Part shown: one piece after another, positions 6,418-63,168 of the stretch | How positions within the stretch are numbered: the first letter of the stretch is position 1 | Layout of the letters: every line of letters begins with the position of its first letter | NCBI GenBank assembly: GCA_016929445.1 | Contig: JAFGIU010000057.1 | Span: 3,867 to 67,866 of the forward strand | Length of the DNA: 64,000 nt | Source: Candidatus Omnitrophota bacterium | Lineage (GTDB): Bacteria; Omnitrophota; Gorgyraeia; JAFGIU01 | Reading direction: 5' to 3' | Position numbers and translations under genes: made by a program | Notes under the pieces: model-generated | What the model was told of the DNA's origin: nothing | Databases searched by the model: none | What the model saw: the letters and a program-made list of their open reading frames with translations, nothing else

Positions 6418-6433
6418 TGCGGCTCACTCCAAA

Positions 6434-6466: not shown

Positions 6467-6907
6467 CGCGATTGCGGTCCGAAGACCATCCAAGAATTCC
6501 AATCCTTGGCAGCCCAGCGCCCCCTCTCTCCCCCGGAAAGTCGGGTCTGTGGCTTTGCGTCCCACCCTTAGCGAAGTGGTTTGCCTTTGACAAGATTTGA
6601 TTCTTACCTTCAAAGAACAGATTGAGGACTATGTGTCCTCTGCTATTAGAGCAACTCTGATGCCAACTTAAAAAAAGCTACCTATGTTTCGAAGGCAACT
6701 TACACTAACCCATTTAATATAAAAGGGTTACAAAATTTGTCTTGGGATACGCAAATTCGGCCTTCAGCGGCTCCCCCTGAGATCCTGAGCCACTCATAGC
6801 TCCGTTTTGGAGCCCTGCTTGATACTTCTTTTTGTAACTTATTTATTGATAGAGTGTTACAGTTTGTTTCCATTTGGCAACACTTGGCTCCGTTCCGGAA
6901 CCAATCC

Positions 6908-8947: not shown

Positions 8948-8967
8948 GGAAGTTCCTTCTGCCGGCA

Positions 8968-16485: not shown

Positions 16486-18498
16486 TTAGTACACCAACTG
16501 ACACGACACCTTGAACTCAGCACGCGGCGTCGGTGAGTACGGATCGCGGTCCGTGGAAACTAACTGCACCCTTTCGAAAAACGGGGATTCATCCAGCGCA
16601 ATCAAATACTGCGAGAGAGCCACATCCAGAGAGGTGTAGGTTTGGGCCACCAGCCCCTGCAACAGAAGCTGCTGAGGTTGTTCCTGCTCCATGACCTCAA
16701 TCTTTTTCAGCACAATATTGTCGCTTGTGATGTGGCTAAGCTCCTTCAAGACTCCGTGCCAAAGGGGTTGGCGTCCCACGGCCTTGTCCAGCAACCCTTT
16801 ACGTTTCTCATAATTCGCCTTTTTCTGATCCAGAATCTGAATCTGGGAAACCGTGACCTCCATCTGTTCCAGACCGGATTCCGCATTGGTAATGAGTCTC
16901 TTGTAGTTGGCCACTTGCGCAGAAACACCCAGGTACATAAAACCAGCGGCAAGCGCAAAAAGAGGAATGAGTAGTTTTAAACCGAGCTTAAGACTGGCCA
17001 GCCGGTATTTCAGAGCCAGCTCCGGCGGAGCCAGATTGAACTTCTGGCGCTTAGGACGCACCACAAGCCCCAGGGCCACGGCCAGATCCGGGGAAGCCGC
17101 CTTCAGACGTTTCCAATCGTAATTATCTGCGTCAACCCACTCCCCGACCAGCTGGAGGGAATTGAGCTCGGAAACCTGGACCTCGGGCAAATTCTTGCTG
17201 AGGTATTCCAGGAAGCCCTTCATGCGCGATGCTCCGCCGCAAATGAGCAAACGGTCTATCTTTGTAATCTTGAAGGTCTGCTTGTAGTAGTTGAGTGAGC
17301 GCTGAATTTCAGTACGCAGGCGCTCCAGCACCGGCCGGACCATGCCGGCAATCCCCCACCCCGTCAGACCCCCGAACTCGGCCTCGTGTTGGTCCGGTCC
17401 GGGAATCCCCACTTCCTTTTTAACTTGCTCTGATTCTTCGAAACTGACATCCCGCTTGCCGGACGCGGTCGTAACTGTGCGCATCATGGATTGGGTCAAC
17501 TGATCCCCGCCCATGGGAAGTTCCCGGAAGAACTGCAAACGGCCATGGGCAAAACAACTGAGGGCCGACCGCTTGGCCCCCAAATCCAACACGCCCACCA
17601 CCTCGTCTTCCCGGATCAAATTGGCCTGGGTCACCAAATTCTCCAAGGCAAAAGGAAGCACGTTGATTTGTGCGGGGTGCAAACCCACCTCTTCCATAAT
17701 GGCGACCGCATCGTCAATGTGATCCCGCTGCGAAGCCACAGTCAGAACCTGGAGCTTGCCCTTTTCCGGCGAGTCGGTCCCGGCCACATAGAAAAAATTA
17801 TTCGGATCCACGGAAAAGGCCGCTTGCTTTTTAGCCTCCATAATGAGCGCGCCCTTGAGGTCCTTGCCCGAAAGCTTGGGAACCAGCACAGAGGAAATGC
17901 TCACGGAATCCCCGCTGCAAAGCCACATGCCGTGAGCCACCACCCCCGGCTCCGGAACCACAAGCCCGCGCAGGTACTCAATCAAGTACTCGCGGCGCCT
18001 GTCACGCTTGGCGCAAACCGCCGGCGGAAGTTCTTGGTGCCAAAAATCCGCGAGCTGAAAGCCGGAAGCCACTTGGCGGACTTTGACCACCTTGACACTG
18101 CTGTCTCCCAAATCAATTCCGTAAATAATCTTCTTGGGGGAAAATTTCTCGGTGAGTTTGTGAACAAAAGAACGCGGAGGCTCCTCACTCAAAGAAGCAT
18201 CAATAAGTGTGGGCGCTTCCACTTCCGTGGCCCGGCCTGTAGTTGGGGCATTCTGGGCTGAGGCCCCGGGCGGCACAGACTCCTTGGGAGGCACTGAATT
18301 CTCTTCTCCTGCTGAAGGCGGCCACGAGGGGGCAGAAGACTTTTCTTCAGGTTGGGAACCTGAAGGAGGCGGAGGCCAGGCAGCAGGCTTGGGATCTTGA
18401 GGCTGCTCCGGAGACTTGCCTGCGTCTCCTTCTTCTCCTGGCTTCTTCTTTATGTAACCGGCGAATTCGTCAGGAATTTCTGAAGGGTCGACGACCAC
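16486..18498 (-). CDS. pilM: PilM-PilN fusion (actin-like ATPase PilM joined to a PilN-like TM/coiled-coil domain) with a roughly 120-aa Pro/Glu/Ser-rich N-terminal extension.
   Basis: PilM core KKIIYGIDLGDSSVKVVKV...GGASRMKGFLEYL. PilN-like C-terminal part FNLAPPELALKYRLASLKLGLKLLIPLFALAAG. GTG start at 18498; no internal ATG precedes the PilM core. Confidence 0.7.
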   Translation of the reverse strand: MVVDPSEIPDEFAGYIKKKPGEEGDAGKSPEQPQDPKPAAWPPPPSGSQPEEKSSAPSWPPSAGEENSVPPKESVPPGASAQNAPTTGRATEVEAPTLIDASLSEEPPRSFVHKLTEKFSPKKIIYGIDLGDSSVKVVKVRQVASGFQLADFWHQELPPAVCAKRDRRREYLIEYLRGLVVPEPGVVAHGMWLCSGDSVSISSVLVPKLSGKDLKGALIMEAKKQAAFSVDPNNFFYVAGTDSPEKGKLQVLTVASQRDHIDDAVAIMEEVGLHPAQINVLPFALENLVTQANLIREDEVVGVLDLGAKRSALSCFAHGRLQFFRELPMGGDQLTQSMMRTVTTASGKRDVSFEESEQVKKEVGIPGPDQHEAEFGGLTGWGIAGMVRPVLERLRTEIQRSLNYYKQTFKITKIDRLLICGGASRMKGFLEYLSKNLPEVQVSELNSLQLVGEWVDADNYDWKRLKAASPDLAVALGLVVRPKRQKFNLAPPELALKYRLASLKLGLKLLIPLFALAAGFMYLGVSAQVANYKRLITNAESGLEQMEVTVSQIQILDQKKANYEKRKGLLDKAVGRQPLWHGVLKELSHITSDNIVLKKIEVMEQEQPQQLLLQGLVAQTYTSLDVALSQYLIALDESPFFERVQLVSTDRDPYSPTPRAEFKVSCQLVY

Positions 18499-19046: not shown

Positions 19047-22000
19047 CTAATTCTTCTGACTCAATTTAAAGAACGCGCTCGGAGTGGTGCTGCGCACCCC
19101 TCCTTCATTCAAGAACAGCAGTTGCACCACAAGCGAATGGGAAGCCCGCACCGTGCCCAAAAAACTCATCCTCCCATCCCCTGCAAATTCCCGCACCCCG
19201 CCCATACTGCGCACGGGATTGGGCCACTCCAAGGCCTCTTCCTCAACGACTTGCTGCTGCAACAAATAGCGCACACCCAACTCCATAACCTGGCGATAGA
19301 GCTGGGCCCGGTCCGGGAACCCGGCCTCCTCGGCCAAAGCCGAGGCCTCTCCCATAGATAACGAGAAAATTCCGGTATCTGCCGTGGAACCGTGAGGCCC
19401 GACCCCGCCGAAGATCTCCCAACCCTCTCCGAGCGAAGCACTTTGCAAAGGCACCAACCGGTCTGCGCTGCGCACCACCCAATCCGCATAAGCCTCCTCC
19501 CCCGTGGCCCGGTAGGCTTGGTGCAGGGACTGAATCAGCCAATAGGCGGTTTCCAGATCCTCGATCTGTCCCGCATACTCCGCCAGAAAAGGGAAGCTGG
19601 TCTCGACCCGTTTCAGGAAGATGTCGTGCCCGGTAAAATAATAGAGTTCCATAAAGGCCGATAGCGCATAGCCCACCTGCAAGAGAGAGGCCTCCTCCGG
19701 ATCGGACTTGAACACTCCGCTGCCCCAGCGCCCGTCCTCCTCCTGCAACAGACCCATGAAGCCCACCAGCTTCTCGAGTTGCCCCTGATACAGACGCGGC
19801 TCCCTCAACTGAATGATCCCCAAAACACCCAGAGCCGTGGGCCCCAGTTGGCCGCCCTGATCCGGCCCGCCCAAATACCCGAGCTGCAAGTTCCCGTCAA
19901 AATCCGCGCCTTCCAGGGTGTAGTCGTGATAGGCCTGCCTCAAATGCAAACCCAGTTTGTATTGGAAGAGTTTCTCCAAGTCATAGTTGGAGGTAAAGGC
20001 CGCCAGGAGACCCATGCGCAAGGAGCCCTCGAGCTGATCCGCCAGAGTCCCGGTGGAAAGGTAAAGATCCCGGGGCGCATCATAGGCGGCAGCCATCCAG
20101 CCCGTGTCATCCATATATCCCTGCAAACACCAGCGCGAGGCATCATAGAGCCGGCCCCACAGGGCCGTGGTATCGGCCAAGTCGGGATCCTTGAGACAGA
20201 ACTGGATAATTTCTTCCCGGCTCAGGGGCGCGACCAAGTCCCTGGCCTTTTGGATAAGCTCCCGGCGCTTATACGCATCAAAAAGCCTCAAGCGTCCGGC
20301 CAAACGGTGGCGCAGATCCGAGGTGCTTTCCTTGACCACTTTGTAGGGATCCGAAGGCAATGAAGACAAGAGCGATGCGTTCAAACGCGCCGTGGGCTGG
20401 TGCGTGGCATCCGGAGAGCGGAATTCCAGAATGAGGTCATCATCGGTGTGAAAGTCTCCTGCTCCCGCGTACTGGCGCAAACCTTCCTCGCCCAATACAA
20501 AACAACTGAGCAGATCATAGAGGGAGTCCACCCCAATGCGCGCAAGGTCCTGACGCAACTGCGTGCGTTTGAATTGCCCCCGGACCTTCTCCACATCAAA
20601 CTCCACAGGAACATCCGAACCCAGCAGGAGCACATCCACTCCGTGCGCCAGCTCCCAGACCTGCGTGTGCGGGAAGACTTCCCCAAAAGTGCGCGTGAGC
20701 AACTTAAGGTCCGCGGGATCGAGGCCGTCCAGAGGAATCCACTGACAAAAAACTCCGCCGCTTTTCAATGCCGCGCGCCCGGCAGCCAGACTTTCATAGG
20801 TGAGCAACGCCCCCGAAGGATAGCTCCACAAGTCCTGCGGCCCGGAGATAATGACATCGTAAACATCAGCCTGCGCGCGCAAGTACCCGCGCAAGTCTTC
20901 GCGCACTAAATGCACCCGGTGATCGGCCAGCACATTACGGTTGTGGAGAGTAAAGAACTGCGAGGCCTCCACTGCAGCCTGCTCCGGCTCCAGAATATCA
21001 ATCCCTTGCACCGCATGCGTGGCCACCGAACTGCTCAGGATCCCGGTTCCCAAACCCACCACCAGAACCTCCCGGGCCTCAGTATGCAACATGAACGGCA
21101 ACTGGCCGGCAAGCACTTCGCTCTCAAGCCGGCTCTTGGCCGCCCCGATAATCCGGCCGTTCCGGACCAAGTAACGGTCGGACCCATCCCGCTCGTCAAT
21201 CACACTCACGGTTTGCGCCGAGCCCTCCCGGTAATACCGCACATCATAACGCGAGTGCAAGTCCTGGCGGAAAGAAGCCCAGCTCGGATTCGCGGTCTGG
21301 AAAGAACTTTGATGCAAGTCGCGGGTAAAAAGGAGAGGATCCCAGGGGGCCAGATAGGCCACAATCAAGGTCAAACAAGGAAGCGCGGTCACGGCTGCAG
21401 CGCGCATTCCAAAAGAGTGACGCCGCGCAGAACGCCAATTCCACAACACAACACCCACCGAAAGATTCACGGCAATGGCCAGGATCACTCCCAAACGCCC
21501 GCCCACGGCAGGCACAATAGCCACGCCCAAGACCAAGGCCCCGCCCACAGCACCCAAAGCTCCCATAACGGTGAAAGCCGCCGCATCCCGGCCCATATGC
21601 CGGCGCCCGGTTGTGGCTGCATCCAAAGCCAAGGGAATCCCCGCGCCCATAAAAAAGGCTGTGGGCAAAAGGATAACGGTGGTTACCACAAGCATCCATC
21701 CCACCGTGGGGTAGAATTCCCCGCCAATGACCCGGCCGAACAAATAGTCAAAAACCGGCAAAAGCCCGCAAAGATAAAGAGTGGTGCAGGCCACAGCTCC
21801 CACCGAAAGCTGGGACACGGCCAGAAGCCGCAAGCGGTCCCCGCGCGACACACCGGGAAAACGCAGAACCGCCAAAATCCCCAACCCAATCCCGAGAAGA
21901 AAGGCGGAAAGCCCGAAGGAGAGCGTATAAATCGACCCGCCCGCATAGAAACTGAGGAAGCGCACCCAACTGACCTGATACACCAAGGCCGTGCCGCCGA

Positions 22001-22718
22001 TCAGGGCCAGAACCGCCAAACCCAGCGTGCGCCTTTGCTGCGCCAAAGGCGCCAGCCGCGCTGACGTGCGCATCACATGCGCGACGCGCCTGCGGCGCCG
22101 GACCCCCGGAGACGGCGGAGGCACACTGCGCTGGGATTCCGGCAGACTCCCCCAACCCAAAGCCGCGGCAATCACATGGCCCAGGGCTGTCAGGAAGACA
22201 GCCCCGGTCACACCCAAGAGCGCAAGGGAGAAAAACACACAGGCCAGGCAGCCCACCACCGCGCCCAGCATGCCAAAGCCGTAAAGCTGGGCCACCTCAT
22301 CCCCGCGCCGCTGCGGCAACTGCATCCAATAACGCGCCAAAACCGGCACACCTGCGCCGATAAAACCTGCAGGCACACCCAAGGCAAGGACCAGCGACAA
22401 GAGAAGAAAACCCCGCGGAGCGCCTTGAGCCAAAATTTGAATGAGAACCGGAAGGAGAAGAATGTAAGCGCCTGCGGCCAACTGAAAGACCGCGTATTTC
22501 CATAGCGCGCGGCGTCGATCCCACGCATCGGCAGTGCGGCCGCTTAAATAAGAGCCCGCGCTAATACCGCCGAAAAAAGCGAGGATAACAAGAAGGGTGG
22601 CGTGGAATTCTGAACCCACCAAGGGCAATACCAAACGCTGCCAAAGGATTTGGGCTGCCAAGGCGGCGCCCCCCGCCAAGGCAAGTGAAATCAGGAGCGC
22701 CTGATTTCTCCACTTCAT
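19047..22718 (-). CDS. Large membrane protein of 1223 aa: a multi-TM N-terminal region, a spermidine/spermine-synthase-like methyltransferase-fold domain, and a C-terminal alpha-helical domain of unknown function.
   Basis: SpeE-like segment VLVVGLGTGILSS...DVIISGPQDLWSYPSGALLTYESL. I placed the start at ATG 22718 (MKWRNQALLISLALAGG), preceded by AAGGAGA. The track's start at 22757 contains that SD. Confidence 0.65.
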   Translation of the reverse strand: MKWRNQALLISLALAGGAALAAQILWQRLVLPLVGSEFHATLLVILAFFGGISAGSYLSGRTADAWDRRRALWKYAVFQLAAGAYILLLPVLIQILAQGAPRGFLLLSLVLALGVPAGFIGAGVPVLARYWMQLPQRRGDEVAQLYGFGMLGAVVGCLACVFFSLALLGVTGAVFLTALGHVIAAALGWGSLPESQRSVPPPSPGVRRRRRVAHVMRTSARLAPLAQQRRTLGLAVLALIGGTALVYQVSWVRFLSFYAGGSIYTLSFGLSAFLLGIGLGILAVLRFPGVSRGDRLRLLAVSQLSVGAVACTTLYLCGLLPVFDYLFGRVIGGEFYPTVGWMLVVTTVILLPTAFFMGAGIPLALDAATTGRRHMGRDAAAFTVMGALGAVGGALVLGVAIVPAVGGRLGVILAIAVNLSVGVVLWNWRSARRHSFGMRAAAVTALPCLTLIVAYLAPWDPLLFTRDLHQSSFQTANPSWASFRQDLHSRYDVRYYREGSAQTVSVIDERDGSDRYLVRNGRIIGAAKSRLESEVLAGQLPFMLHTEAREVLVVGLGTGILSSSVATHAVQGIDILEPEQAAVEASQFFTLHNRNVLADHRVHLVREDLRGYLRAQADVYDVIISGPQDLWSYPSGALLTYESLAAGRAALKSGGVFCQWIPLDGLDPADLKLLTRTFGEVFPHTQVWELAHGVDVLLLGSDVPVEFDVEKVRGQFKRTQLRQDLARIGVDSLYDLLSCFVLGEEGLRQYAGAGDFHTDDDLILEFRSPDATHQPTARLNASLLSSLPSDPYKVVKESTSDLRHRLAGRLRLFDAYKRRELIQKARDLVAPLSREEIIQFCLKDPDLADTTALWGRLYDASRWCLQGYMDDTGWMAAAYDAPRDLYLSTGTLADQLEGSLRMGLLAAFTSNYDLEKLFQYKLGLHLRQAYHDYTLEGADFDGNLQLGYLGGPDQGGQLGPTALGVLGIIQLREPRLYQGQLEKLVGFMGLLQEEDGRWGSGVFKSDPEEASLLQVGYALSAFMELYYFTGHDIFLKRVETSFPFLAEYAGQIEDLETAYWLIQSLHQAYRATGEEAYADWVVRSADRLVPLQSASLGEGWEIFGGVGPHGSTADTGIFSLSMGEASALAEEAGFPDRAQLYRQVMELGVRYLLQQQVVEEEALEWPNPVRSMGGVREFAGDGRMSFLGTVRASHSLVVQLLFLNEGGVRSTTPSAFFKLSQKN

Positions 22719-22780
22719 AGACGCATCTCCTTGAGTGACATTGAATTGTAGCATCACTCAAGAATCGCAGTCAAACTGCA

Positions 22781-22890
22781 GGGACGGTTCTTACCGTTCG
22801 TTGAACTCGGCGGGCCGTAAGAACCGTCCCTGGTGTCAGGCACCGGTGCCAGGCACCGGTGCCTGACACCGTGAAACTATTCTGTTTCAC
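22781..22890. repeat. Cluster of three hairpins 3' of paralogue P1. (1) GTGAAAC-tattct-GTTTCAC spanning the stop codon. (2) A 39-nt near-perfect palindrome GGTGTCAGGCACCGGTGCC-a-GGCACCGGTGCCTGACACC. (3) A family-B hairpin GGGACGGTTCTTAC...GTAAGAACCGTCCC.
   Basis: Read directly at 22871-22890, 22832-22870 and 22781-22830. Confidence 0.5.
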
Positions 22891-24532
22891 GCCAGTCTAC
22901 CCAACGGTAAGGACGCACGGCAATTTCTGAGTCCACCAAATTCAAGACCTGTTCCGAATACAGGATGTCGCAATAGCCCTGGTCATTGGGAATGTGAAAC
23001 TCCCGGCCATTGAGAAGCACTGCGCCCAGAATCTGAGGCCGCTGATCCACGAGACTGCTCCCCCCTCCGAATGCGCTGTCCAGCACCAAGGGCACATTGA
23101 AGTGATTGTGGAATTCAATTTCCTTGGCTATAAAAGCGCCTCCCAAGTCAATATGGTTATTGCCCGTAAAAGAGCCGTTGGGCAAATACAGATTCGCGTA
23201 CATGACCACATGGTTGCGATCCACATCAAAATCGCCGGCCACATAGAGCACGCAATCCTTGGCGCTCAAACCGCTCCCCGCACCGGCCTGAAGCGTAAAC
23301 CCGTTGTCAATTGTGATGTCCCCAGCCACATGCAGGTTTGTTGGGGCCTGGAAGTAAATTTCACCCCAAACCCCCATGCTCAGGCTATTGAGATAGTAAT
23401 CCCCGCCGCTCAGGTAAAGCACGCAATGCCCGCCCATGCTGATGTTGCGGTAGGAGCCTGCGGCCAAAGTCTGCGTACTGTGATCGCCGAAAGCCAGATC
23501 CGTGGTGCCCGCGCTAAAGCTGGGGAAGCCAGGAAGGCTCATGAGCGGAAGACTCAGTGTGGTATGGGTTGTTCCTCCGATGCTCGAGTGATGACCCACA
23601 GAACCGGAATTGTAATGCAGATCTCCGGCCACTGTGGCGTGATGATCCAGGCTAAGGTTGTCGGCCATAATGCTTCCCCCCCAGACACCGTGAGAATCCG
23701 CGCTGAACCACCCCCCTGCGTTGACCACACCCACATTACCGGAAGCCACGTCCTGATGGTTGTGCATGGCCATGCGGTCCAGAGCCAGGAGCGCAAAGTC
23801 TCCCGCATCAAAGGGACTAGCCGGAGTCCCTATCAACTGCAGACGGGTCACATCCTCCACGCTGCCCGCGACATCGTGCTGATAAACCAACACCAAACCT
23901 GTCCACTGGGCATTGTTCTCCATGATCAGGCGCGGAGGCCTGGAAGCCGCAGGGGTCTTGTCTTCGATAAACAAGACCCCAAAACCTTGGAAGTCATCCT
24001 GGAGTGTGAGTCGGGCATCGTCCACATGCACGATCTTGTAGTTACCCGGGCTCCCGATGGCACTGCTGCCGTTATAAGTGGTGTCCGCTGAAATCACCAT
24101 ATCCGCGATCTGGCGAAAATAGTCGATCATCACTTCCACATCCACGGGAGTGACACCTCCCTCTATTGCAAGCGGGTCGCCGCTAATCGCTGTGTGAAGC
24201 ATGGAGATCACACCGGCATTCAAATCCGTCACTGCGCCGGGACGGTCCCCGGAGCCGGCCAAATTCCCCGATGTGTCAAAATTGTGGCCGTCAATGACCG
24301 CCTCTGCAGGGTAAGTAGGGCTCCCGTCGAGGCTCAGAGAATAACTCGCCTCCCCGGCACGCGAGACAAAGGATACAGCGCCCAGGCTCCCGGCCACTGC
24401 ACCGACCTGGGCCTTCTCGCCGGTCACGACGACTTTCTTGCCTTCAGCGGCAAGGGAAAGGGGCGCCACACACAGTGTGAACGCCCCTATTAACACCAAG
24501 CAGGTTGTTGGTTGCTGGATTCGCGTTCTCAT
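22877..24532 (-). CDS. Secreted His-rich beta-helix-like repeat protein, paralogue P1 (551 aa). Candidate pilus-associated or tip protein.
   Basis: ATG 24532 is preceded by GGGGGAGGAGG. Signal peptide LVLIGAFTLCVAPLSLAAEG. About 85% identical to P2 across long blocks (for example MHNHQDVASGNVGVVNAGG...HYNSGSVGHHSSIGG). Conserved C-terminus RPYRWVDWRETE. Confidence 0.75.
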   Translation of the reverse strand: MRTRIQQPTTCLVLIGAFTLCVAPLSLAAEGKKVVVTGEKAQVGAVAGSLGAVSFVSRAGEASYSLSLDGSPTYPAEAVIDGHNFDTSGNLAGSGDRPGAVTDLNAGVISMLHTAISGDPLAIEGGVTPVDVEVMIDYFRQIADMVISADTTYNGSSAIGSPGNYKIVHVDDARLTLQDDFQGFGVLFIEDKTPAASRPPRLIMENNAQWTGLVLVYQHDVAGSVEDVTRLQLIGTPASPFDAGDFALLALDRMAMHNHQDVASGNVGVVNAGGWFSADSHGVWGGSIMADNLSLDHHATVAGDLHYNSGSVGHHSSIGGTTHTTLSLPLMSLPGFPSFSAGTTDLAFGDHSTQTLAAGSYRNISMGGHCVLYLSGGDYYLNSLSMGVWGEIYFQAPTNLHVAGDITIDNGFTLQAGAGSGLSAKDCVLYVAGDFDVDRNHVVMYANLYLPNGSFTGNNHIDLGGAFIAKEIEFHNHFNVPLVLDSAFGGGSSLVDQRPQILGAVLLNGREFHIPNDQGYCDILYSEQVLNLVDSEIAVRPYRWVDWRETE

Positions 24533-24660
24533 GACATCCTCCTCCCCCTTCAGGGATTAGTTTTCAGGGCTTCAGATCCGGACCGGGCAGTGTCTCTAGG
24601 ACCCCCTTGCCGCAGTCCGCTGGTTTAGCCCCGGAGGATGTCACCTCCCGCTTACCAGCA

Positions 24661-24756
24661 CGTCATTGCCAGGAGCGCTACTCGTCATCCCGAGGAGCGA
24701 AGCGGCGGGGGGATCTATGTCCCGCAAAGATTGCTTCGCTACGCCCGCAATGACGA
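24661..24756. repeat. Family-A palindromic repeat copy A1 (CGTCATTGC...GCGAAGC...GCTTCGC...GCAATGACG).
   Basis: Nested inverted repeats at 24661-24669 / 24748-24756 and 24697-24703 / 24733-24739. Confidence 0.5.
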
Positions 24757-24786
24757 AGGAGGCTCACTCGCCATGACTACGGTGTT

Positions 24787-26454
24787 TTATTCGTCTTCCC
24801 TCCAATCCACCCACTTGAACGGGCGCGCTGCGAGCTCAGAGTCTACTGCTGTCAGGACCTCTGAGGAATATAGAATGTCCGCATAAGTCTCGCCGTTGGG
24901 AATGTGGAACTGGCTCCCTGCCATGAGCACCGCGCCCAGAATCTGCGGCCGCTCAGCAGAGCCTCCTCCAGCGCTACCAAAACCACTGTCGAGACTCGCC
25001 GGCACATTGAAGTGGTTGTGGAACTCGATACTTCTGGCGATAAACGCTCCACCCAACTCAATGTGATTATGGCCCGTAAATGATCCATTAGGCATATAGA
25101 GATTTGCGTAAATGACCACATGATTGCGATCCACGTCAAAATCGCCGGCCACGTAAAGCATGCAGTCCTTCGCACTCAAACCACTCCCTGCATCAGCCTG
25201 CAGCGTAAAACCATTATCAATATTGATATCGCCCGCCACATGCAAGGTTGTGGGAGCCTGGAAATACACTTCACCCCAAACCCCCATGCTCAAGTCTTCG
25301 ATATAGTAGTCACCACCGCTCAAATAAAGCACGCCATTGCTGCCAAAAGTAATATCCTTGTAGGATCCCGCTGCCAGTGTATGCGTTGCGTTGTTCCCCA
25401 AGCTGACATCTGCAACCCCTGCAGAGAAGCTGGGAAAAGTGGGCAGCGTCAACAAGGGCGTACTCAAAGTAGTATAGGTTGCGCCCCCTATGCTGGAGTG
25501 ATGATCTACAGAACCTGTGTTGTAGTGCAGGTCACCGGCTACCGTACAGTGATGGCCCAGCGAGAGGTTGTCGGCCATAATGCTTCCACCCCAGACCCCA
25601 TGGGCATCCGCCGTAAATGTCCCGCCTGCATTGACGACACCCACATCACCACTGGCCACATCTTGGTGATTGTGCATTGCAATGCTGTCAATACCCAACA
25701 ACACAAAATCACCCACATCAAAGCCGGTCGACGCCGCAGTCCCCATCATTTTCACGCGTGTCACGTCATCGGCGCTGCCGGCCCCATCGGCCTGGTTCAC
25801 AAGCACCAAACCTACCCATTTGGCGTTATTGAGCATGACCAGGCGGGGATCCCTGCTTGAAGCGGGGTTCTGGTCGTCGATCACTAACACGCCGTAGCCC
25901 TCAAAATCACCCTCAAGCGTGAGCTGCGCGTCCTGGACATAGACGATCTGGTAGTCCGCGGCCCCGCCGATGTTATTGGTTTCGTCGTAGGCCGTGTCCG
26001 CAGTGATCGTCAAATCAGCCGCATACTTAAAGTATGCAACCATTTCGGCTGGATCGACAGCACTGAGGTCTTCGCCTCCCAACAGGGCCGAAGGATCTCC
26101 GCTCACCACGGCATTGCTGGTTGAAAGAGACCCCACGACTTCATCCGTAACCAAGCCGGGCCGGTCCCCGGCGCCCGTCAGGTTGCCGCTGGCATCGTGG
26201 TTCTCGCCTTCAACCACCAGCTCGGATGCGGCTGAAGCGCTCCCGGCCACAGTCAACGCATAGGTCGTTTCTCCGGCGCGGCCCAAGAGACTTAAAGCAC
26301 CCAGACTTGCGGAAACAGTCCCCACAGCCGGCTTAATCCCTGTGACCGAGACCTTTTTCTCCTCTGCGGAAAATGCGGTGCCGGCGCTCAGGCAAAAAAT
26401 GCCGAAGCCCATCACTAGTAACAGGCTTATTGTGAGTACGCTCATTCGTTTCAT
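24787..26454 (-). CDS. Paralogue P2 (555 aa), a tandem duplicate of P1.
   Basis: Start moved to ATG 26454 (MKRMSVLTISLLLVMGFGIFCLSAGTAFSA), preceded by GAGGAGG. The track start at 26625 would read through repeat A2. C-terminus RPFKWVDWREDE. Confidence 0.75.
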   Translation of the reverse strand: MKRMSVLTISLLLVMGFGIFCLSAGTAFSAEEKKVSVTGIKPAVGTVSASLGALSLLGRAGETTYALTVAGSASAASELVVEGENHDASGNLTGAGDRPGLVTDEVVGSLSTSNAVVSGDPSALLGGEDLSAVDPAEMVAYFKYAADLTITADTAYDETNNIGGAADYQIVYVQDAQLTLEGDFEGYGVLVIDDQNPASSRDPRLVMLNNAKWVGLVLVNQADGAGSADDVTRVKMMGTAASTGFDVGDFVLLGIDSIAMHNHQDVASGDVGVVNAGGTFTADAHGVWGGSIMADNLSLGHHCTVAGDLHYNTGSVDHHSSIGGATYTTLSTPLLTLPTFPSFSAGVADVSLGNNATHTLAAGSYKDITFGSNGVLYLSGGDYYIEDLSMGVWGEVYFQAPTTLHVAGDINIDNGFTLQADAGSGLSAKDCMLYVAGDFDVDRNHVVIYANLYMPNGSFTGHNHIELGGAFIARSIEFHNHFNVPASLDSGFGSAGGGSAERPQILGAVLMAGSQFHIPNGETYADILYSSEVLTAVDSELAARPFKWVDWREDE

Positions 26455-26551
26455 GACATGCCTCCTCAGTGTCCCTGTTTCAAGGCCATTGCCGCCCGGC
26501 CCACGCCCTTGAAACACACAGTATGCAACCCCCGTCTTGTGTCGTTGCCTC

Positions 26552-26652
26552 AAAAACGCCGTCATTGCGAGCCGAACCTGGCGAGGCGCGGCAACCTTTA
26601 CGGAACGCGGAACAAAGATCACCACGTCGCTTCGCTCCTCGCGATGACGAGG
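26552..26652 (-). terminator. Family-A repeat copy A2 acting as a rho-independent-type terminator between P3 and P2: hairpin CCGTCATTGCGAGC...GCTCCTCGCGATGACG, followed on the minus strand by CGTTTTTG.
   Basis: Inverted repeat at 26559-26572 / 26635-26652. The U-run corresponds to plus-strand caaaaacg at 26551-26558. Confidence 0.45.
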
Positions 26653-26661
26653 TCCCGCATC

Positions 26662-28290
26662 TTATTCTGCTTCCCGCCAATCCCTCCAAGCATAGGCCCG
26701 GTCATCAATCAAGGCCTCACATGCATCCAAGGCCTGTTCCGAATAGAACACATCAAAAAAGGTCTCTGTATTGGGTAAATGCATCGTGCTCCCCGACAGC
26801 AGCACAGCCCCCAAGATCATGGGACGCTCTTCCGCCCGCCCCCCAATAAAAGCCGAGTCTCCGTTGACTGCTGTGGCCAGGTTATTACTGAAGTCCACGA
26901 CGTTGGCAATCACCGCTCCCTGGAAATCAGCGCCGTTGCCTACCACAATGGACCCGTTGGGAATGTAGATATTGGCATGCACGACCGGGTTGTTGAAGGT
27001 GCAGTCAAAGGTGCCCGTAATATAAATCATCATATCTTTCGGCCCCAAGCCCGCAGCCCCCTCGATCAAGGAAAATCCGTTGGTCACATCAATATCCTCG
27101 GCCACGTAGAGATTGGTGGCTGCAGTGTAATACACGGTGCTGTTTTGGCCCATTTGCAGGCGCCGGATGTAGATATCCCCTCCGGTGAGATAGAGCGTCG
27201 CGTTGTTGCCCATGCGGATCTCGTCATAGGAGCCCGCAGCCGCGCTTTCGATTGCGCCATTGGCCGTGTTGATGATGTCGTCGCCTGGCGCGCCCGCGGA
27301 AAAGACCGGATAGGGCGGCAAAGCCACGTCTGAAAAATCCAGACTGGGATAAACAGTGCCCACCACTGTGACGTTGTTGTCCACGGTCAAATTATTCGAG
27401 TGCACGTCCTCGTTGATAATCACATTCTCCTCGAGATACACCGAATCCGCCAGCACACTCCCGTTAATCACGGCGCCGTTTTCGACAGTCAGAGTATTTC
27501 CCGCGTTGGCGATCCCGATATCCCCGTTGATGATGGCTCCGGTACCGATGATCAAGTCCGAAAGACCCAGCAGCGCATAATCCTGCATGAGAATTTCCAT
27601 GCGGCCTTCCAAAGTGACCCGCGTGACCTGGGAAGCCACAGTCGAATCCTGATATACCACCACCAAGCCCGTCCAAGTCGCGGTGTTGTGCATGACCAGC
27701 CTCGGAGTAGTCCCATCACCGCTCCTGTCCCAAATAGCCAAGACGCCGAAGCCTGCGAAATCCTCTGCCAGAGTGAGCGTCGCGTCATCCACAAAAACAA
27801 TCTGGTAATTTCCGGCGCTGCCGATGCTCCCGCCGTTGTACGTGGTATCCCCGGTAAAAATGATATCCGCGCGGTCCCTGTACCACTCCACCATCTCGAA
27901 GACATCAATGGAGGCCACACCCCCCAGCTGGCCTGAGGGATCTCCCGTCACAACCAGGTTCGAGGCCGTGATCGTCCCAACCACCTGGTCCGTGGCAATC
28001 CCGGCCTGGTCGTCCGCCCCGGTAGCTGTGGCAGTCAAATCGTAATTCGTGCCGTCAATCACGCCCTCCAGCGGCTCCCCGGGTTCCCCGGCAGCCACCA
28101 GGGAATAGCTCGCGGCTCCGTCCCGGCCCATAAAGTTCACGGCCCCAAAGGTCAAGGCATCCAAGGCCGGACGGGTCGCGGTCACTTCCACCTTTTTGGC
28201 TTCAAACCCAAAAGTCCGGCTTGCCGCGCCCAAGGCATTCATGGCCACAAACACCGCCAAAATAAAGACACTCCCCAAGAACCTCTTCAT
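26662..28290 (-). CDS. Paralogue P3 (542 aa), a divergent member of the same family.
   Basis: Start moved to ATG 28290 (MKRFLGSVFILAVFVAMNALGAA), preceded by GGGGGAAAGGG. The track start at 28305 is GTG. Shares the C-terminal block ...YIPNGS...FQGAVIANVVDF...RPMILGAVLLSG...AWRDWREAE. Confidence 0.75.
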   Translation of the reverse strand: MKRFLGSVFILAVFVAMNALGAASRTFGFEAKKVEVTATRPALDALTFGAVNFMGRDGAASYSLVAAGEPGEPLEGVIDGTNYDLTATATGADDQAGIATDQVVGTITASNLVVTGDPSGQLGGVASIDVFEMVEWYRDRADIIFTGDTTYNGGSIGSAGNYQIVFVDDATLTLAEDFAGFGVLAIWDRSGDGTTPRLVMHNTATWTGLVVVYQDSTVASQVTRVTLEGRMEILMQDYALLGLSDLIIGTGAIINGDIGIANAGNTLTVENGAVINGSVLADSVYLEENVIINEDVHSNNLTVDNNVTVVGTVYPSLDFSDVALPPYPVFSAGAPGDDIINTANGAIESAAAGSYDEIRMGNNATLYLTGGDIYIRRLQMGQNSTVYYTAATNLYVAEDIDVTNGFSLIEGAAGLGPKDMMIYITGTFDCTFNNPVVHANIYIPNGSIVVGNGADFQGAVIANVVDFSNNLATAVNGDSAFIGGRAEERPMILGAVLLSGSTMHLPNTETFFDVFYSEQALDACEALIDDRAYAWRDWREAE

Positions 28291-28547: not shown

Positions 28548-28575
28548 AGTATAACACCAATTAGAATATTTTCAA
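28548..28575 (-). promoter_or_regulatory. Sigma70-like promoter (TTGAAA, 16-nt spacer, TATACT) for the P3-P2-P1 unit, with a leader of about 250 nt.
   Basis: The reverse complement of 28548-28575 reads ttgaaa atattctaattggtgt tatact. It lies in an AT-rich island between the pseudopilin gene and P3. Confidence 0.35.
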
Positions 28576-28627: not shown

Positions 28628-29032
28628 CTATGCACCCAGCATGGAGGATTCAATCGTCACTTCGATATTGGCCCCCACCGTGTTCACGGTAATGTCATAG
28701 GAACCCGTGGTTCCGCTGATGGTGAAGGTCTCGGTGAGCACGCCCCCGCCCGGGGTCCAGGAAGGATCTTCCGCCAAGAGCTGCTTGGCCCGTTCATAAC
28801 CCGAATCCGCCACATACAGGGCCTGCGCTTCGCGGTAGTTGGAGCGCGCGCCCTCAAGCTGCCCTGCTGAAATTGAGACCAGAACCATGCCCATGGCCGA
28901 GAAAAGCATCATCACAAAGACTGCGATGATGGTCGCAAAACCCGATTGGGAATTCAGCCCGCTCCGCTTGGGCACCGGACTAGGGTCTGAGGTTCCGCGG
29001 GAAAATAATGGAATTATAGGTAATCGATTCAT
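28628..29032 (-). CDS. Minor pseudopilin, GspK/PilX-like (lacks Glu5).
   Basis: The segment SGFATIIAVFVMMLFSAMGMVLVSISAGQLEGARSNYREAQALYVADSGYERAKQLL matches the GspK-type N-terminus. The start is uncertain (ATG 29032 or GTG 28975). Confidence 0.55.
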   Translation of the reverse strand: MNRLPIIPLFSRGTSDPSPVPKRSGLNSQSGFATIIAVFVMMLFSAMGMVLVSISAGQLEGARSNYREAQALYVADSGYERAKQLLAEDPSWTPGGGVLTETFTISGTTGSYDITVNTVGANIEVTIESSMLGA

Positions 29033-29477
29033 TTCCGCTCGCCACGGTTATGCTCACTCCGACACGCCAGATATCCGTCACATCCCCGACCGGCGTTGCA
29101 AGAGCGGCATTGTTTTCGTCAAAATAGGTAAAAAGCAGGTTGGTCACATTCCTGCACAGCGGGTCACTGTTCCGCTGCAACTCACTCCCGGACAGCTCAA
29201 ACACGATATTGACATCATCCCCGTCAAAGAAATCAAACTCATCCGTATCCGCCACCTGGATATCTGCCGCGTCATTCCCCCGCAAAGTCCGGATTTCGCG
29301 GGTCATCCAGTCGATGGCCATCTTGCCCATCACGGCTTCGTCATTGCGAAAGCTCACAAAAGACCACAGGTCGACCACGGCCAGCACCGTGCCCGCAACG
29401 CCGGCACTCAAAATGCCGGCCACAGCGATCACCGCGACCAGCTCGATTAATGTGTGGCCTTTGTGGTCTTTCTTCAT
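28980..29477 (-). CDS. Minor pseudopilin with a prepilin-type cleavage/methylation N-terminus, GspJ/PilW-like.
   Basis: MKKDHKG|HTLIELVAVIAVAGILSAG. Confidence 0.65.
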   Translation of the reverse strand: MKKDHKGHTLIELVAVIAVAGILSAGVAGTVLAVVDLWSFVSFRNDEAVMGKMAIDWMTREIRTLRGNDAADIQVADTDEFDFFDGDDVNIVFELSGSELQRNSDPLCRNVTNLLFTYFDENNAALATPVGDVTDIWRVGVSITVASGNESITYNSIIFPRNLRP

Positions 29478-29668: not shown

Positions 29669-30271
29669 TCAATTTCCGCTATGGCTCGAACTCACAACCT
29701 CGCTAAAGGTCATGGTGCCCACTTTTGCGTGAGTCACCGTGACATCGATCCGTTTGTAATTGGTCCGGGCGGTGTCCAGCCTGACCGTGTCAAAATCCGT
29801 GTTCAGGGGATCATCATCCGCATACACATAGTAGACCGTGGCTGAGCGGGTAAAGCCCGGATACCCGGCAATTGCCGTCTCAGAGTAACCGTCGTAATCA
29901 TCCACATCATCAAAGTCGGCATTGGTGGACTCCCCTGCATTTGTCCCCAAAGCATTACTCCAATTGGTGGGCCAAACAGTGATGGGGTCCCCGGAGGGAG
30001 GAAAGGGTGTGGAAGAGCTGTTCTCATCAAAGTCCTTGGCAATGATCTCTTCCATCAGGGCGCGGCCCACGACCGTGGCCGTATTCTGGAACTCCGAATG
30101 AACGGATTCAATGGCGACCATGGAATACATATCCATGAGAGGCAGGGCGCAAAGGCCCAGAATGACGATGGCAAAACTGAGCTCCATCAGACTCATCCCG
30201 GACTGAGTCAGAAGTTTTGCCTTCAGGATGGATTTAAGAGACGCTCCCCGCAGGTCCCCCATGAATCTCAC
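29669..30271 (-). CDS. Minor pseudopilin, GspI/PilV-like.
   Basis: Prepilin N-terminus LTQSG|MSLMELSFAIVILGLCALPLM. Confidence 0.6.
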   Translation of the reverse strand: MRFMGDLRGASLKSILKAKLLTQSGMSLMELSFAIVILGLCALPLMDMYSMVAIESVHSEFQNTATVVGRALMEEIIAKDFDENSSSTPFPPSGDPITVWPTNWSNALGTNAGESTNADFDDVDDYDGYSETAIAGYPGFTRSATVYYVYADDDPLNTDFDTVRLDTARTNYKRIDVTVTHAKVGTMTFSEVVSSSHSGN

Positions 30272-30381: not shown

Positions 30382-31341
30382 TTATTTGGCCGAGGCCGTG
30401 TGCCACTGCCACATCCACTCCAGAGTCTCGCGAAGTGTGTAACGCAGTTCCCATCCCGTGGCCAGTTTGAAGCGGGAGCAATCCCCCAGGAGGATGGGCA
30501 CATCACTGGGACGCATGGCCTGAGGGTCGGTCTCCACCTCATTGCTCACACCCGCGATCCCGCTCACCATATCAACCACCTCGCGAATAGTCACCGTCTT
30601 GCCGGAACAAATATTGTAGACCTCGCCGGGTTCCGCCTTTTCCAAGGCCAGCCAATAGGCTCTCACCATATCGCGCACATCCGTGAAGTCCCGCTTTGCA
30701 TCCAAATTGCCCAGGCTGTAGCGCTCGCGCTTGCCCTGCTTGATCTCCAAGGCCTGCTTTACCACCTTGCCGCAAATAAACTCCGCAGGCCGGCGCACGC
30801 CCGTATGGTTAAAAGCGCGCGTGCGCACAATGTGCAACCCGTAAGAACGGTGGTACTGAAAGCCCAAGAGATCCTGCGTTACCTTGCTCACTCCATAAGG
30901 ACTCAAAGGCCTTAACGGATTCGTCTCTTTGACCGGGGTTTCCTCTTCATGCACCAAGCCGTATTCCTCGCTGCTGCCGCACACCAAAAACCGGATCGGG
31001 TAATCCGCCCGCCTCATGGCTTCCATCAGATTGAGTTGGGAGATCACGTTATTGTCCAAGGTCTCTTTGGGCGCAATCCAGGAAGTGGGAACGTGGGATT
31101 GAGCTGCCAGGCCGAAGATCCGTTCCGGCAGAGTCTCTTTCACGACGCGCTCAACAGCCGAGGGGTCGCGCAAATCACACTCATAGAGTTGGACCCTGTC
31201 TTCGAGATGTTCAATATTGTCATGGCGGGAACGCCAACGGATGGTCCCTACCACCTTCCAGTCGGGATGCTCTGAAAGAATATGTTCCGCAAGGTGGGAA
31301 CCCACAAATCCGGATATCCCGGTAATCAAGCAAGTTTGCAT
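30382..31341 (-). CDS. gmd: NAD(P)-dependent short-chain dehydratase of the GDP-mannose 4,6-dehydratase family (Gmd/Rmd-like).
   Basis: N-terminal GISGFVGSHL Rossmann motif. Catalytic SPYGVSKVTQDLLGFQY and the RAFNHTGVRR signature (compare the Gmd NHESPRR motif). ATG at 31341. Confidence 0.65.
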   Translation of the reverse strand: MQTCLITGISGFVGSHLAEHILSEHPDWKVVGTIRWRSRHDNIEHLEDRVQLYECDLRDPSAVERVVKETLPERIFGLAAQSHVPTSWIAPKETLDNNVISQLNLMEAMRRADYPIRFLVCGSSEEYGLVHEEETPVKETNPLRPLSPYGVSKVTQDLLGFQYHRSYGLHIVRTRAFNHTGVRRPAEFICGKVVKQALEIKQGKRERYSLGNLDAKRDFTDVRDMVRAYWLALEKAEPGEVYNICSGKTVTIREVVDMVSGIAGVSNEVETDPQAMRPSDVPILLGDCSRFKLATGWELRYTLRETLEWMWQWHTASAK

Positions 31342-31371: not shown

Positions 31372-31875
31372 CTAGTCGACCCAAGTAAGACCTGTATTTT
31401 GGTTTACCGTAACCGTCCGGCTATTTCCACGGCAAGCAACCACAACGCTCCCGTTGGCCCCCAAATCCACTCCGGCAGCGTCCTGGGGCACACCCAATGA
31501 GCTGAAGACCAAGGTGGCGCCCCCGTCAAAATCAGCGCTGGTGATCGTGACATCCTGAAGCTCCGGGTCATTGGGGTAGTCTATGGTCATGGCACCGCGG
31601 GTATGCGGGCTGATCACATCCGCGCCGGTGGAGACCACGTAAACCTGGTAGGTTTCGTTCACCGTGCTGAAGGCAATCCCGATGGCTTCGTGGGTATTGA
31701 TGGCCAGCTGCTGGGCAAAGCGCAGATCCGACACCAACTTACGCGCCGCGCCCTCAGCCTGCATACTGTAATAACTGTCGAAACTGGGAATGGCCAGAGC
31801 GGCCAGGATACCGATAATGACCATCACCATGGTCAACTCGATGGCGGTAAAACCGGACTGTTTTCCCCTCCCCAT
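31372..31875 (-). CDS. Minor pseudopilin GspH/FimT/FimU-like.
   Basis: Start moved to ATG 31875 (MGRGKQSG|FTAIELTMVMVIIGILAALAIP). The downstream ...ARKLVSDLRFAQQLAIN... block is GspH-like. The track start at 32007 adds 44 residues that do not fit a prepilin. Confidence 0.7.
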   Translation of the reverse strand: MGRGKQSGFTAIELTMVMVIIGILAALAIPSFDSYYSMQAEGAARKLVSDLRFAQQLAINTHEAIGIAFSTVNETYQVYVVSTGADVISPHTRGAMTIDYPNDPELQDVTITSADFDGGATLVFSSLGVPQDAAGVDLGANGSVVVACRGNSRTVTVNQNTGLTWVD

Positions 31876-32027
31876 GACGCCCCCCCGGTAGTCCGTGGCA
31901 GGATTCGGAACCCAAGTAGTAAGTATACCATTACTTGCAAATCCGATCTCCGGCCATTCAAGCAGCCTGGGTAAAGTTGGAGGCACTGTTTCGCTTCTCA
32001 GGCCCAATGGAGATAGTCACTGCATCA

Positions 32028-59679: not shown

Positions 59680-59712
59680 ATCCACACCCCAGGCTCGACT
59701 CGGCCATACTGT

Positions 59713-61687: not shown

Positions 61688-61689
61688 CC

Positions 61690-63162: not shown

Positions 63163-63168
63163 GCGTCC

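What the first reader, a model, noticed from the sequence alone, without database searches (positions are those of the whole stretch)
22877..28290. Three paralogous secreted His-rich beta-helix-like proteins sit in the PilY1 slot after a complete minor-pilin set and share an invariant C-terminal W-x-D-W-R-E-x-E tail
In transcription order on the minus strand the genes run GspH-like, gmd, GspI/V-like, GspJ/W-like, GspK/X-like, then P3, P2 and P1. This mirrors the fimU-pilVWX-pilY1 arrangement. No PilY1 or von Willebrand/beta-propeller protein is present. The P proteins have Sec signal peptides and no prepilin motif. Repetitive Gly/Asn/His-rich blocks suggest a beta-helix. Conserved His clusters such as HNHQDVASG and GHHSSIGG may bind metal. 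All three end in R-[PA]-[YF]-x-W-[VR]-D-W-R-E-x-E at the C-terminus. P1 and P2 are about 85% identical, a recent tandem duplication. P3 is divergent. The unit has its own sigma70-like promoter in an AT-rich island and a roughly 250-nt leader. These are candidates for a new class of pilus tip or adhesin, or pilus-associated secreted proteins.
Basis: partly seen in the sequence, partly recalled or inferred. Interest (0 to 1): 0.8.

Follow-up and report, generated by a model that had tools for sequence, protein, structure and literature searches.

The report
Omnitrophota pilus-tip beta-solenoid protein family
Three neighbouring genes in an uncultured Omnitrophota bacterium encode secreted beta-solenoid proteins that most likely sit on the tip of its type IV pili, clipped on by a conserved eight-residue tail. 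They would stand in for the PilY1 adhesin that this locus lacks.

Summary
Three paralogous Sec-secreted proteins (P1 22877-24532, P2 24787-26454, P3 26662-28290, minus strand) follow a GspH/PilV/PilW/PilX-like minor-pilin set, and all end in W-x-D-W-R-E-x-E.

Corrections:
- P1 and P2 are 64% identical, not 85%.
- Only P1 and P2 are mildly His-rich. Their His residues replace the Asn of solenoid turns and are not conserved.

The order H-V-W-X-P recurs in seven other loci. The K-family pilin just upstream is truncated. Long PilX-like pilins of the same phylum carry a solenoid plus a similar Trp-containing terminal strand in cis.

Best reading: a PilY1/PilC/MshQ analogue anchored by C-terminal beta-strand complementation of the short PilX. 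This is inferred, not modelled as a complex. I rate it a new variant of a known kind.

The parts
22877..24532 (-). P1, 551 aa: Sec signal peptide, N-domain (about residues 30-235), inserted beta-solenoid (235-490), C-terminal segment with the tail
   Evidence: (identical to P0001, Omnitrophica MAG JW937_04990)
23063..23830 (-). P1 beta-solenoid module (residues 235-490). It is DUF7305-like and has an ice-binding-protein/ComZ-like triangular fold.
22880..22915 (-). P1 C-terminal tail RPYRWVDWRETE, a predicted terminal beta-strand (residues 543-549)
24787..26454 (-). P2, 555 aa, 64% identical to P1. The tail RPFKWVDWREDE is encoded at 24790-24825.
   Evidence: (identical to P0002)
26662..28290 (-). 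P3, 542 aa, 41% identical to P1. The tail RAYAWRDWREAE is encoded at 26665-26700. It is the only paralogue above the Pfam DUF7305 threshold.
   Evidence: 32.2 bits against a cut-off of 27; identical to P0005
28628..29032 (-). Short PilX/GspK(K-family)-like minor pilin, the proposed docking partner. It lacks Glu5. Its globular part is about 75 aa and stops where long PilX-like proteins continue into a further strand, a solenoid and a terminal strand.
   Evidence: PilX_N E 0.025 and GspK E 0.013. 3 of 11 family members hit PilX_N or GspK, best E about 1e-3. Alignment A6. Orthologues sit immediately before P in L006, L007, L009, L013, L017 and L026.
28980..29477 (-). PilW/GspJ-like minor pilin (G|HTLIE, Glu5 present)
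   Evidence: N_methyl E 6e-6. Orthologues in related loci at E 1e-22 to 1e-41.
29669..30271 (-). PilV/GspI-like minor pilin (G|MSLME, Glu5 present)
   Evidence: TIGR02523 PilV E 0.005, N_methyl. Orthologues.
30382..31341 (-). NDP-sugar 4,6-dehydratase/epimerase (SDR) inserted in the minor-pilin operon
   Evidence: Pfam GDP_Man_Dehyd at 288 bits. It falls below the NCBIfam gmd equivalog cut-off.
31372..32007 (-). GspH/FimU-like minor pilin (G|FTAIE, Glu5 present)
   Evidence: Pfam GspH E 3e-7, TIGR01708 E 9e-12
28548..28575 (-). Sigma70-like promoter candidate, TTGAAA-16-TG-TATACT, in the 322-nt gap between pilX-like and P3
   Evidence: 10 of 12 matches, extended -10. The count in the region is not above chance.
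22780..22870 (-). Two perfect hairpins (18- and 15-bp stems) directly after the P1 stop. This is the likely 3' end of the P3-P2-P1 unit.
   Evidence: (-69 kcal/mol, z -9.6)
19047..22757 (-). Fused MFS/spermidine-synthase-like membrane protein (1236 aa) downstream of P1. A spermidine-synthase-like gene also follows the P genes in L012-L014.
16486..18498 (-). PilM-PilN fusion, first gene of the pilMNOPQ-type assembly block (PilO 15904-16482, PilP-like 15401-15904, secretin 13775-15397, PilC 9849-11087)
   Evidence: PilMN directly follows P in L007.

Best explanation
P1, P2 and P3 are non-pilin, Sec-exported accessory proteins of the type IVa pilus of an Omnitrophota bacterium. They are functional analogues of PilY1/PilC/MshQ.

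Proposed mechanism:
1. Each P protein is exported to the periplasm.
2. Its extreme C-terminus (W-x-D-W-R-E-x-E, a predicted beta-strand) adds in trans the missing last strand to the small beta-sheet of the truncated K-family minor pilin encoded just upstream (28628-29032).
3. That pair is joined by the PilV-, PilW- and GspH-like pilins to form the priming complex.
4. The P protein therefore ends up locked on the pilus tip.
5. The inserted ice-binding-protein/ComZ-like beta-solenoid is the exposed plug or adhesive surface.
6. The three paralogues share the docking tail but differ in the body, giving alternative tips or possibly a hetero-complex.

What is shown: the genes, signal peptides, tail conservation, fold, conserved synteny, the truncation of the short PilX, and the presence of a solenoid plus a Trp-containing terminal strand in cis in long PilX-like pilins of the same phylum.

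What is inferred: physical docking of the tail on PilX, tip location and adhesion.
For: (1) Conserved synteny. GspH-PilV-PilW-shortPilX-P is found in the window and in L007/L018, L017, L009, L026 and L012-14 (three P paralogues there too, followed by a spermidine-synthase-like gene and later PilM). It is rearranged to X-P-H-V-W in L006/L016, and in L025 P follows GspH with the other pilins a few kb downstream.

(2) The tail is at the very C-terminus in 29 of 29 family ORFs against 2 of about 578 other ORFs. W544, W547, R548, E549 and E551 carry 3.1-3.9 bits, and the 8-mer ranks 7th of the protein. It is modelled as a beta-strand.

(3) Solenoid-less relatives (283-344 aa, some longer through low-complexity inserts) keep the N-domain and the tail and sit in the same slot. 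The conserved function therefore resides in the core plus tail, and the solenoid is an accessory insertion.

(4) The short PilX-like pilins (113-162 aa) lack Glu5. They align only to the first about 120 residues of long PilX-like pilins (355-373 aa) of the same phylum. Those long forms continue into a solenoid and end in ...LVITEWREL...VIVSQWQEQ...VSRWEEVP...VSNWQAQ...VSGWRSL or ...VASWKAL. L025 has one V-W-longX set and one V-W-shortX set plus one P gene.

(5) Published precedent. The last roughly 10 residues of PilC/PilY1, and by modelling MshQ, strand-complement PilK/PilX. GspK and CpaL supply the same strand in cis (PMC12918778; also PMC13190605).

(7) No PilY1, vWA or propeller protein was found in the 64-kb locus.
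Against: - No complex was modelled or measured. The structure-prediction quota allowed monomers only, and I could not see which strand the tail pairs with in the monomer model.
- In about eight loci (Kaelpia, Saelkia and relatives) the genes form a tandem pair with no pilin gene within 8-10 kb.
- That pair always consists of two anciently diverged subfamilies. This fits a heterodimer better than interchangeable tips.
- Assignment of the short pilin to the K family rests on gene order, lack of Glu5 and weak profile hits (E 1e-3 to 3e-2).
- The similarity between the P tail and the long-PilX tail is limited to a Trp followed by a basic or polar residue near the C-terminus. hhalign finds no significant homology between the P core and long PilX.
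- The key precedent is a 2026 preprint.
Confidence: 0.55

Rival explanations
1. P proteins are cargo, or released exoproteins or adhesins, of this type IV pilus / type II secretion-like machine. They are exported by Sec and pushed through the secretin, not stably tip-anchored. The tail would then be a recognition, quality-control or retention signal rather than a complementing strand.
For: They have Sec signal peptides, and the locus has GspH/GspK-like hits. The solenoid module is widespread in large surface proteins combined with PKD, Ig, cadherin and lectin domains. Half of the lineages keep the genes away from pilin genes. P3-P2-P1 may have its own promoter and terminator.
Against: The machine has PilM/N/O/P/Q and PilC but no GspC/L/M. 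Type II substrates are not known to carry a linear C-terminal signal (established knowledge). The strict position directly after the K-family pilin, the truncated K pilin and the cis tail in long PilX are not explained.
Confidence: 0.15
2. P proteins are periplasmic or outer-membrane structural or assembly factors of the pilus machine, for example secretin-associated or alignment-complex components, rather than tip proteins.
For: They sit between the minor pilins and pilMNOPQ. In L007 the P gene directly precedes pilMN. The mature N-terminus (E-x-KK-V-x-V-T) is conserved as well as the C-terminus.
Against: Three divergent paralogues and a variable or absent solenoid fit a variable exposed module better than a fixed machine part. 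The fold relatives are tip and adhesin proteins.
Confidence: 0.12
3. They are ice-binding/antifreeze-type or other surface-binding solenoid proteins unrelated to pili, and the adjacency to pilins is incidental.
Against: There is no Pfam Ice_binding hit for P1-P3 even at E 0.1. Solenoid-less members keep the slot and the tail. ComZ has the same fold with no ice-binding role (PMC6561018). The synteny is conserved in seven other loci.
Confidence: 0.05
4. They are beta-helix polysaccharide lyases or hydrolases acting on the glycans made by the neighbouring glycosyltransferase genes.
Against: These scores are far below those for the ice-binding/ComZ fold. There is no Pfam or NCBIfam enzyme hit and no PDB sequence hit. 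Solenoid-less members cannot carry such an active site.
Confidence: 0.03

Closest known systems
PilY1 / PilC (type IVa pilus tip adhesins) and MshQ
   Same: They are non-pilin, Sec-exported large proteins encoded directly after the pilV-W-X (I-J-K) minor pilins. Multiple paralogues per genome are possible (PilC1/PilC2; three PilY1 in Myxococcus). Function depends on an extreme C-terminal peptide of about 10 residues that strand-complements the K-family pilin (PMC12918778, PMC13190605).
   Different: P has no beta-propeller, no vWA domain and no Pfam PilY1/PilC match. The P body is an unrelated N-domain plus a triangular beta-solenoid. The tail motif W-x-x-W-[RK]-E-x-E is family-specific. Docking is inferred here, not shown.
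ComZ (Thermus thermophilus, PDB 6QVI) and cyanobacterial beta-solenoid PilX
   Different: ComZ and PilX are pilins: an N-terminal hydrophobic helix and a GspK-like fold, with the solenoid inserted before the last strand of the same chain. P proteins have a cleavable Sec signal, no pilin helix and a separate about 200-aa N-domain. The pilin part sits on a separate short polypeptide. There is no significant sequence homology.
[quoted passage not shown]
   Different: They come from Gram-positive hosts, have a different N-terminal domain and have no reported conserved C-terminal docking tail. P1-P3 do not hit NCBIfam tapirin.
DUF3494 ice-binding proteins / Pfam DUF7305
   Different: P1-P3 do not hit the Ice_binding Pfam model. 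DUF7305 covers only part of the solenoid and says nothing about function. The family-defining N-domain and tail lie outside both models.

Membership tests
PilY1/PilC family | C-terminal seven-bladed beta-propeller (Pfam PilY1/Neisseria_PilC domain) | tested here: not met
   No such Pfam or NCBIfam hit at E up to 0.1. The model is a beta-solenoid, not a propeller.
PilY1/PilC family | Sec-exported non-pilin encoded after the pilV-W-X minor pilins | tested here: met
PilY1/PilC family | Extreme C-terminal beta-strand that complements the K-family pilin | tested here: inconclusive
   A conserved terminal strand is present and the partner pilin is truncated. No complex model or binding data exist.
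ComZ / beta-solenoid PilX (K-family minor pilins) | Pilin N-terminal hydrophobic helix / class III signal and GspK-like pilin fold | tested here: not met
   P1-P3 have Sec signals and no N_methyl or PilX_N hit.
ComZ / beta-solenoid PilX (K-family minor pilins) | Ice-binding-protein-like triangular beta-solenoid | tested here: met
Pfam DUF7305 (PF23981) | Score at or above the gathering threshold of 27 bits | tested here: inconclusive
   P3 scores 32.2 bits (met). P1 scores 22.5 and P2 22.8 bits (below). The match covers only residues about 357-480.
DUF3494 ice-binding proteins (PF11999) | Sequence match to the Ice_binding model | tested here: not met
   P1-P3 give no hit at E up to 0.1.
DUF3494 ice-binding proteins (PF11999) | Ice-binding / recrystallisation-inhibition activity | not testable with these tools
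   Needs a biochemical assay.
Tapirins | NCBIfam tapirin model (NF051896) / cellulose binding | tested here: not met
Pectate-lyase-like beta-helix enzymes (PL/GH28) | Family profile match and catalytic site | tested here: not met
K-family minor pilin (PilX/GspK) for the upstream 134-aa gene | Fourth gene of the H-I-J-K set, pilin-like N-terminal helix without Glu5, PilX_N/GspK profile | tested here: met
   Order and lack of Glu5 come from the sequence. The profile hits are weak: PilX_N E 0.025-0.0011 and GspK E 0.013-0.0012.

The most novel reading that the evidence does not exclude
Omnitrophota have replaced PilY1 by a modular, phylum-specific tip system. A universal docking peptide (W-x-x-W-[RK]-E-x-E) lets interchangeable secreted modules clip in trans onto one truncated PilX. 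The modules may carry a solenoid, lack it, be His-laddered, or carry a low-complexity insert. Sister pilus sets keep the same strand in cis on a ComZ-like long PilX. The module repertoire (three in this genome, conserved pairs elsewhere) would then set host or surface specificity of these ultra-small, probably host-dependent bacteria. It would also give a natural cis/trans pair showing how tip adhesins evolved from K-family pilins or were captured by them.
Probability: 0.3. Interest if true: 0.75.

Novelty: new variant of a known kind. Interest (0 to 1): 0.62.

Why it matters
Type IVa pili are almost universal in Omnitrophota and are thought to mediate attachment to hosts or prey (PMC10066038). 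That survey does not mention PilY1 at all, and I found no described tip adhesin for this phylum.

A defined tip-protein family with a recognisable docking tail would say which proteins touch the host. It would give a sequence handle (N-domain plus W-x-x-W-R-E-x-E) for finding them in MAGs.

It would also offer an independent natural test of the recent proposal that C-terminal strand complementation of the K-family pilin, in cis or in trans, licenses assembly of all type IV filaments.

Finally, it would give function to an unannotated core domain and to one context of the widespread DUF7305 solenoid.

Tried and rejected
- Word-indexed homologue searches with family profiles returned only 3-4 proteins, because candidate lists were saturated. 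The exhaustive HMMER search was needed.
- PDB sequence searches with the family profile and with a long PilX found nothing.
- PHROGs gave no hit.
- hhalign of the P profiles against long PilX-like proteins was not significant. I therefore dropped 'fission of a ComZ-like gene' as a sequence-supported claim.
- The first structure model (4 sequences) was poor (pLDDT 64). The 15-sequence model was used instead.
- The afdb50 fold library was unavailable, so the fold of the N-domain alone could not be assessed.
- The combined 28-sequence alignment was too diverse for a locus scan.
- The riboswitch idea for the 255-nt leader was rejected: no Rfam hit at E up to 1 and fold z -1.1.
- Metal-binding His clusters were rejected as a family feature.
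- The lyase reading was rejected on weak scores.
- A literature search for DUF7305 found no paper.

Full report
WHAT IS THERE

The window is a large minus-strand type IVa pilus locus of an uncultured Omnitrophota bacterium. P1 and P2 are identical to hypothetical proteins JW937_04990 and JW937_04995 of a 'Candidatus Omnitrophica' MAG. In transcription order it contains:
- an MshEN-PilZ protein, a PilS/PilR-like sensor kinase and sigma54 regulator, and two small pilin genes (63852-59353);
- about 25 kb of PMT_2/TPR glycosyltransferases, methyltransferases and radical-SAM/SPASM genes;
- a GspH-like pilin, an SDR sugar dehydratase, and PilV-, PilW- and PilX/GspK-like pilins (32007-28628);
- P3, P2 and P1 (28290-22877);
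- a fused MFS/spermidine-synthase-like protein and a small secreted protein;
- a PilM-PilN fusion, PilO, a PilP-like protein, a secretin, coiled-coil and TPR proteins, and PilC.

No PilY1, vWA or beta-propeller protein was found among the window ORFs scanned.

CHECK OF THE OBSERVATION

Confirmed:
- The three ORFs, their Sec-type N-termini, the absence of a prepilin motif and the identical C-terminal motif are all real.
- The H, V and W pilins have Glu5. The X pilin (G|FATII) does not, as expected for the distal K-family subunit.

Corrected:
- P1/P2 identity is 64% and P1/P3 is 41%, not 85%.
- His content is 3.8%, 3.1% and 0.7% for P1, P2 and P3.
- The His residues of P1 occupy columns that are mainly Asn in relatives, in 'GNN' solenoid turns. 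The quoted His clusters are absent from P3 and from orthologues.

Transcription signals:
- A good sigma70-like site with an extended -10 lies in the 322-nt gap before P3.
- The leader has no Rfam match and no unusual stability.
- Two perfect hairpins follow the P1 stop (z -9.6). A separate P3-P2-P1 transcript is therefore plausible but unproven.

ANATOMY OF THE FAMILY

- An exhaustive profile search found only about 13 full-length cluster representatives.
- The central part (profile positions about 235-490, ending '...LDSAF') matches more than 3,000 proteins of many architectures. These carry PKD, Ig, cadherin, Calx-beta, lectin and Kelch domains. Pfam labels part of the module DUF7305.
- A second set of 283-344-aa proteins, plus some longer ones with low-complexity inserts, matches the N-terminal about 200 residues and the last about 55 residues. 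These end in the same W-x-x-W-[RK]-E-x-E.
- The family core is therefore the N-domain plus the C-terminal segment, and the solenoid is an insertion.
- Neither Pfam nor NCBIfam covers the core.
- A 15-sequence AlphaFold model (pLDDT 85) shows a mostly beta N-domain, a long solenoid, then strands, a helix (527-538) and a terminal strand (543-549).
- The tail is at the exact C-terminus in 29 of 29 family ORFs against 2 of about 578 other ORFs in the fetched loci. It ranks 7th among non-overlapping 8-residue windows for conservation.

GENOMIC CONTEXT ELSEWHERE

Every locus whose record names a phylum is from Omnitrophota; three records carry only generic labels such as 'uncultured bacterium' or 'uncultured Planctomycetia'.

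| Context | Loci |
|---|---|
| GspH-PilV-PilW-shortPilX-P | L007/L018 (then PilMN), L017, L009 (then a pilin), L026 (solenoid-less P), L012-14 (three solenoid-less paralogues, then a spermidine-synthase-like gene and later PilM) |
| Rearranged to X-P-H-V-W | L006/L016 |
| GspH, then P, then a V-W-longX set and a V-W-shortX set | L025 |
| Tandem pair of two anciently diverged subfamilies, no pilin gene within 8-10 kb | Kaelpia, Saelkia and relatives (L001-4, L010, L011/L023, L019-L022, L024) |
| Uninformative | three loci |

The unlinked arrangement resembles the Neisseria gonorrhoeae exception, where pilY1/pilC is not organised with the minor-pilin genes (PMC13190605).

THE DOCKING PARTNER

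The short PilX-like pilins (113-162 aa) align with only the first about 120 residues of a family of long PilX-like pilins (355-373 aa) from the same phylum. They stop after the third strand.

The long forms continue with another strand, an ice-binding-like solenoid and a conserved terminal strand. One long form hits Pfam Ice_binding at E 0.0085. The terminal strands end ...LVITEWREL...VIVSQWQEQ...VSRWEEVP...VSNWQAQ...VSGWRSL or ...VASWKAL. The long forms thus have the ComZ/cyanobacterial-PilX architecture, with the solenoid before the last strand (PMC6561018; bioRxiv 10.64898/2026.02.12.705559).

The short forms lack both the solenoid and the last strand. They are always followed by, or lie close to, a P gene that ends in a Trp-[RK]-Glu strand.

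MECHANISM

Ellison et al. (PMC12918778) report the following:
- The last roughly 10 residues of PilC/PilY1 complement the small sheet of the K-family pilin.
- That strand is necessary and partly sufficient for assembly and for tip retention.
- By modelling, MshQ does the same.
- GspK and CpaL supply the strand in cis.

The Omnitrophota data reproduce that cis/trans dichotomy inside one phylum. I therefore propose that P1-P3 dock by their tail on the short PilX, join the V/W/H pilins in the priming complex and end up at the tip with the solenoid exposed.

The steps from 'conserved tail plus truncated partner' to 'strand complementation', 'tip location' and 'adhesion' are inference. I could not run a complex prediction.

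Points that do not fit neatly:
- the conserved tandem pairs in unlinked loci, which suggest a heterodimer;
- the equally conserved mature N-terminus (E-x-KK-V-x-V-T);
- the absence of detectable homology between the P core and long PilX.

RIVALS

- Released cargo of the machine: 0.15.
- A machine or assembly component: 0.12.
- Ice-binding or another pilus-independent function: 0.05.
- Glycan-degrading enzyme: 0.03.

None of these explains the truncated K pilin, the cis tail in long PilX and the persistence of slot and tail in solenoid-less members.

NOVELTY AND VERDICT

The proteins are not members of the PilY1/PilC, ComZ/PilX, tapirin or DUF3494 families, because defining features were tested and not met. 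They work most like PilY1/PilC/MshQ.

This is a new, phylum-specific variant of a recently recognised kind: non-pilin tip proteins held by C-terminal strand complementation. The His/metal and 'recent duplication' details do not.

Interest is 0.62. Confidence in the specific docking mechanism is 0.55. Confidence that the family is functionally tied to the minor-pilin complex is about 0.8.

Noticed in passing
window 6505-6595 (-) and 1-6423 (-): A c-di-GMP-I riboswitch (RF01051, 50.2 bits against a gathering score of 35, E 7.5e-7) lies directly upstream of a giant ORF. The ORF has more than 2,141 codons, a signal-peptide-like start (MKNNHRQRKIALK...) and runs off the window start.
   Followed up: partly
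window 24681-24725 and 26607-26651: P2 is bracketed by an inverted 45-nt repeat (87% complementary), one copy in each flanking intergenic region. These are the only two copies in the window, against 0 expected by chance. Each spacer also contains a partner half-site, so both look like palindromic intergenic elements.
   Followed up: partly
window 22780-22870 (-): Two adjacent perfect hairpins (18- and 15-bp stems, -69 kcal/mol, z -9.6) follow the P1 stop without a U-tract. Next comes a promoter-like TTGACT-18-TACAAT for the following gene.
   Followed up: partly
window 32415-57213 (-): About 25 kb of PMT_2/TPR and YfhO-like glycosyltransferases, GT2/GT9-methyltransferase fusions and two radical-SAM/SPASM genes separates the two small pilin genes (59353-60105) from the minor-pilin operon. 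An SDR sugar dehydratase is inserted between the GspH-like and PilV-like genes. TPR/glycosyltransferase and SDR genes also flank the related loci L012-13 and L025. Together this suggests pilin or tip-protein glycosylation.
   Followed up: no
window 19047-22757 (-); L012/L013 9875-11407: A fused MFS/spermidine-synthase-like membrane protein (1236 aa, with a long C-terminal region that has no Pfam hit) follows the P genes. A 510-aa spermidine-synthase-like gene follows the three P paralogues in L012-14 too. Its role in a pilus locus is unknown.
   Followed up: partly
window 60284-63852 (-): An MshEN-PilZ two-domain protein (both are c-di-GMP-binding modules) and a PAS/HAMP histidine kinase with a sigma54-type response regulator sit just upstream of the two pilin genes. 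A second GAF-sigma54 activator lies at 7439-9106.
   Followed up: no
L013 6491-7831; P0019, P0024, P0025, P0034, P0085 (alignment A4): Solenoid-less family members carry Gly/Ser/Asp/Glu low-complexity inserts at two fixed sites, one of them the solenoid insertion site. Each insert embeds a conserved motif resembling P-S-L-W-E-R-A-L-A-W-V-G-L...A-Y-A.
   Followed up: no
L001, L010, L011, L019-L022, L024: Where the family is not next to pilin genes, it is always a tandem pair made of the same two anciently diverged subfamilies. This hints at a heterodimer.
   Followed up: partly
L025 10331-14002; L006 4584-5678: One Omnitrophota contig carries two minor-pilin sets side by side. One set has a 362-aa solenoid-bearing long PilX ending ...VITEWREL, and the other has a 145-aa short PilX. 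L006 likewise has both a short and a long PilX.
   Followed up: yes
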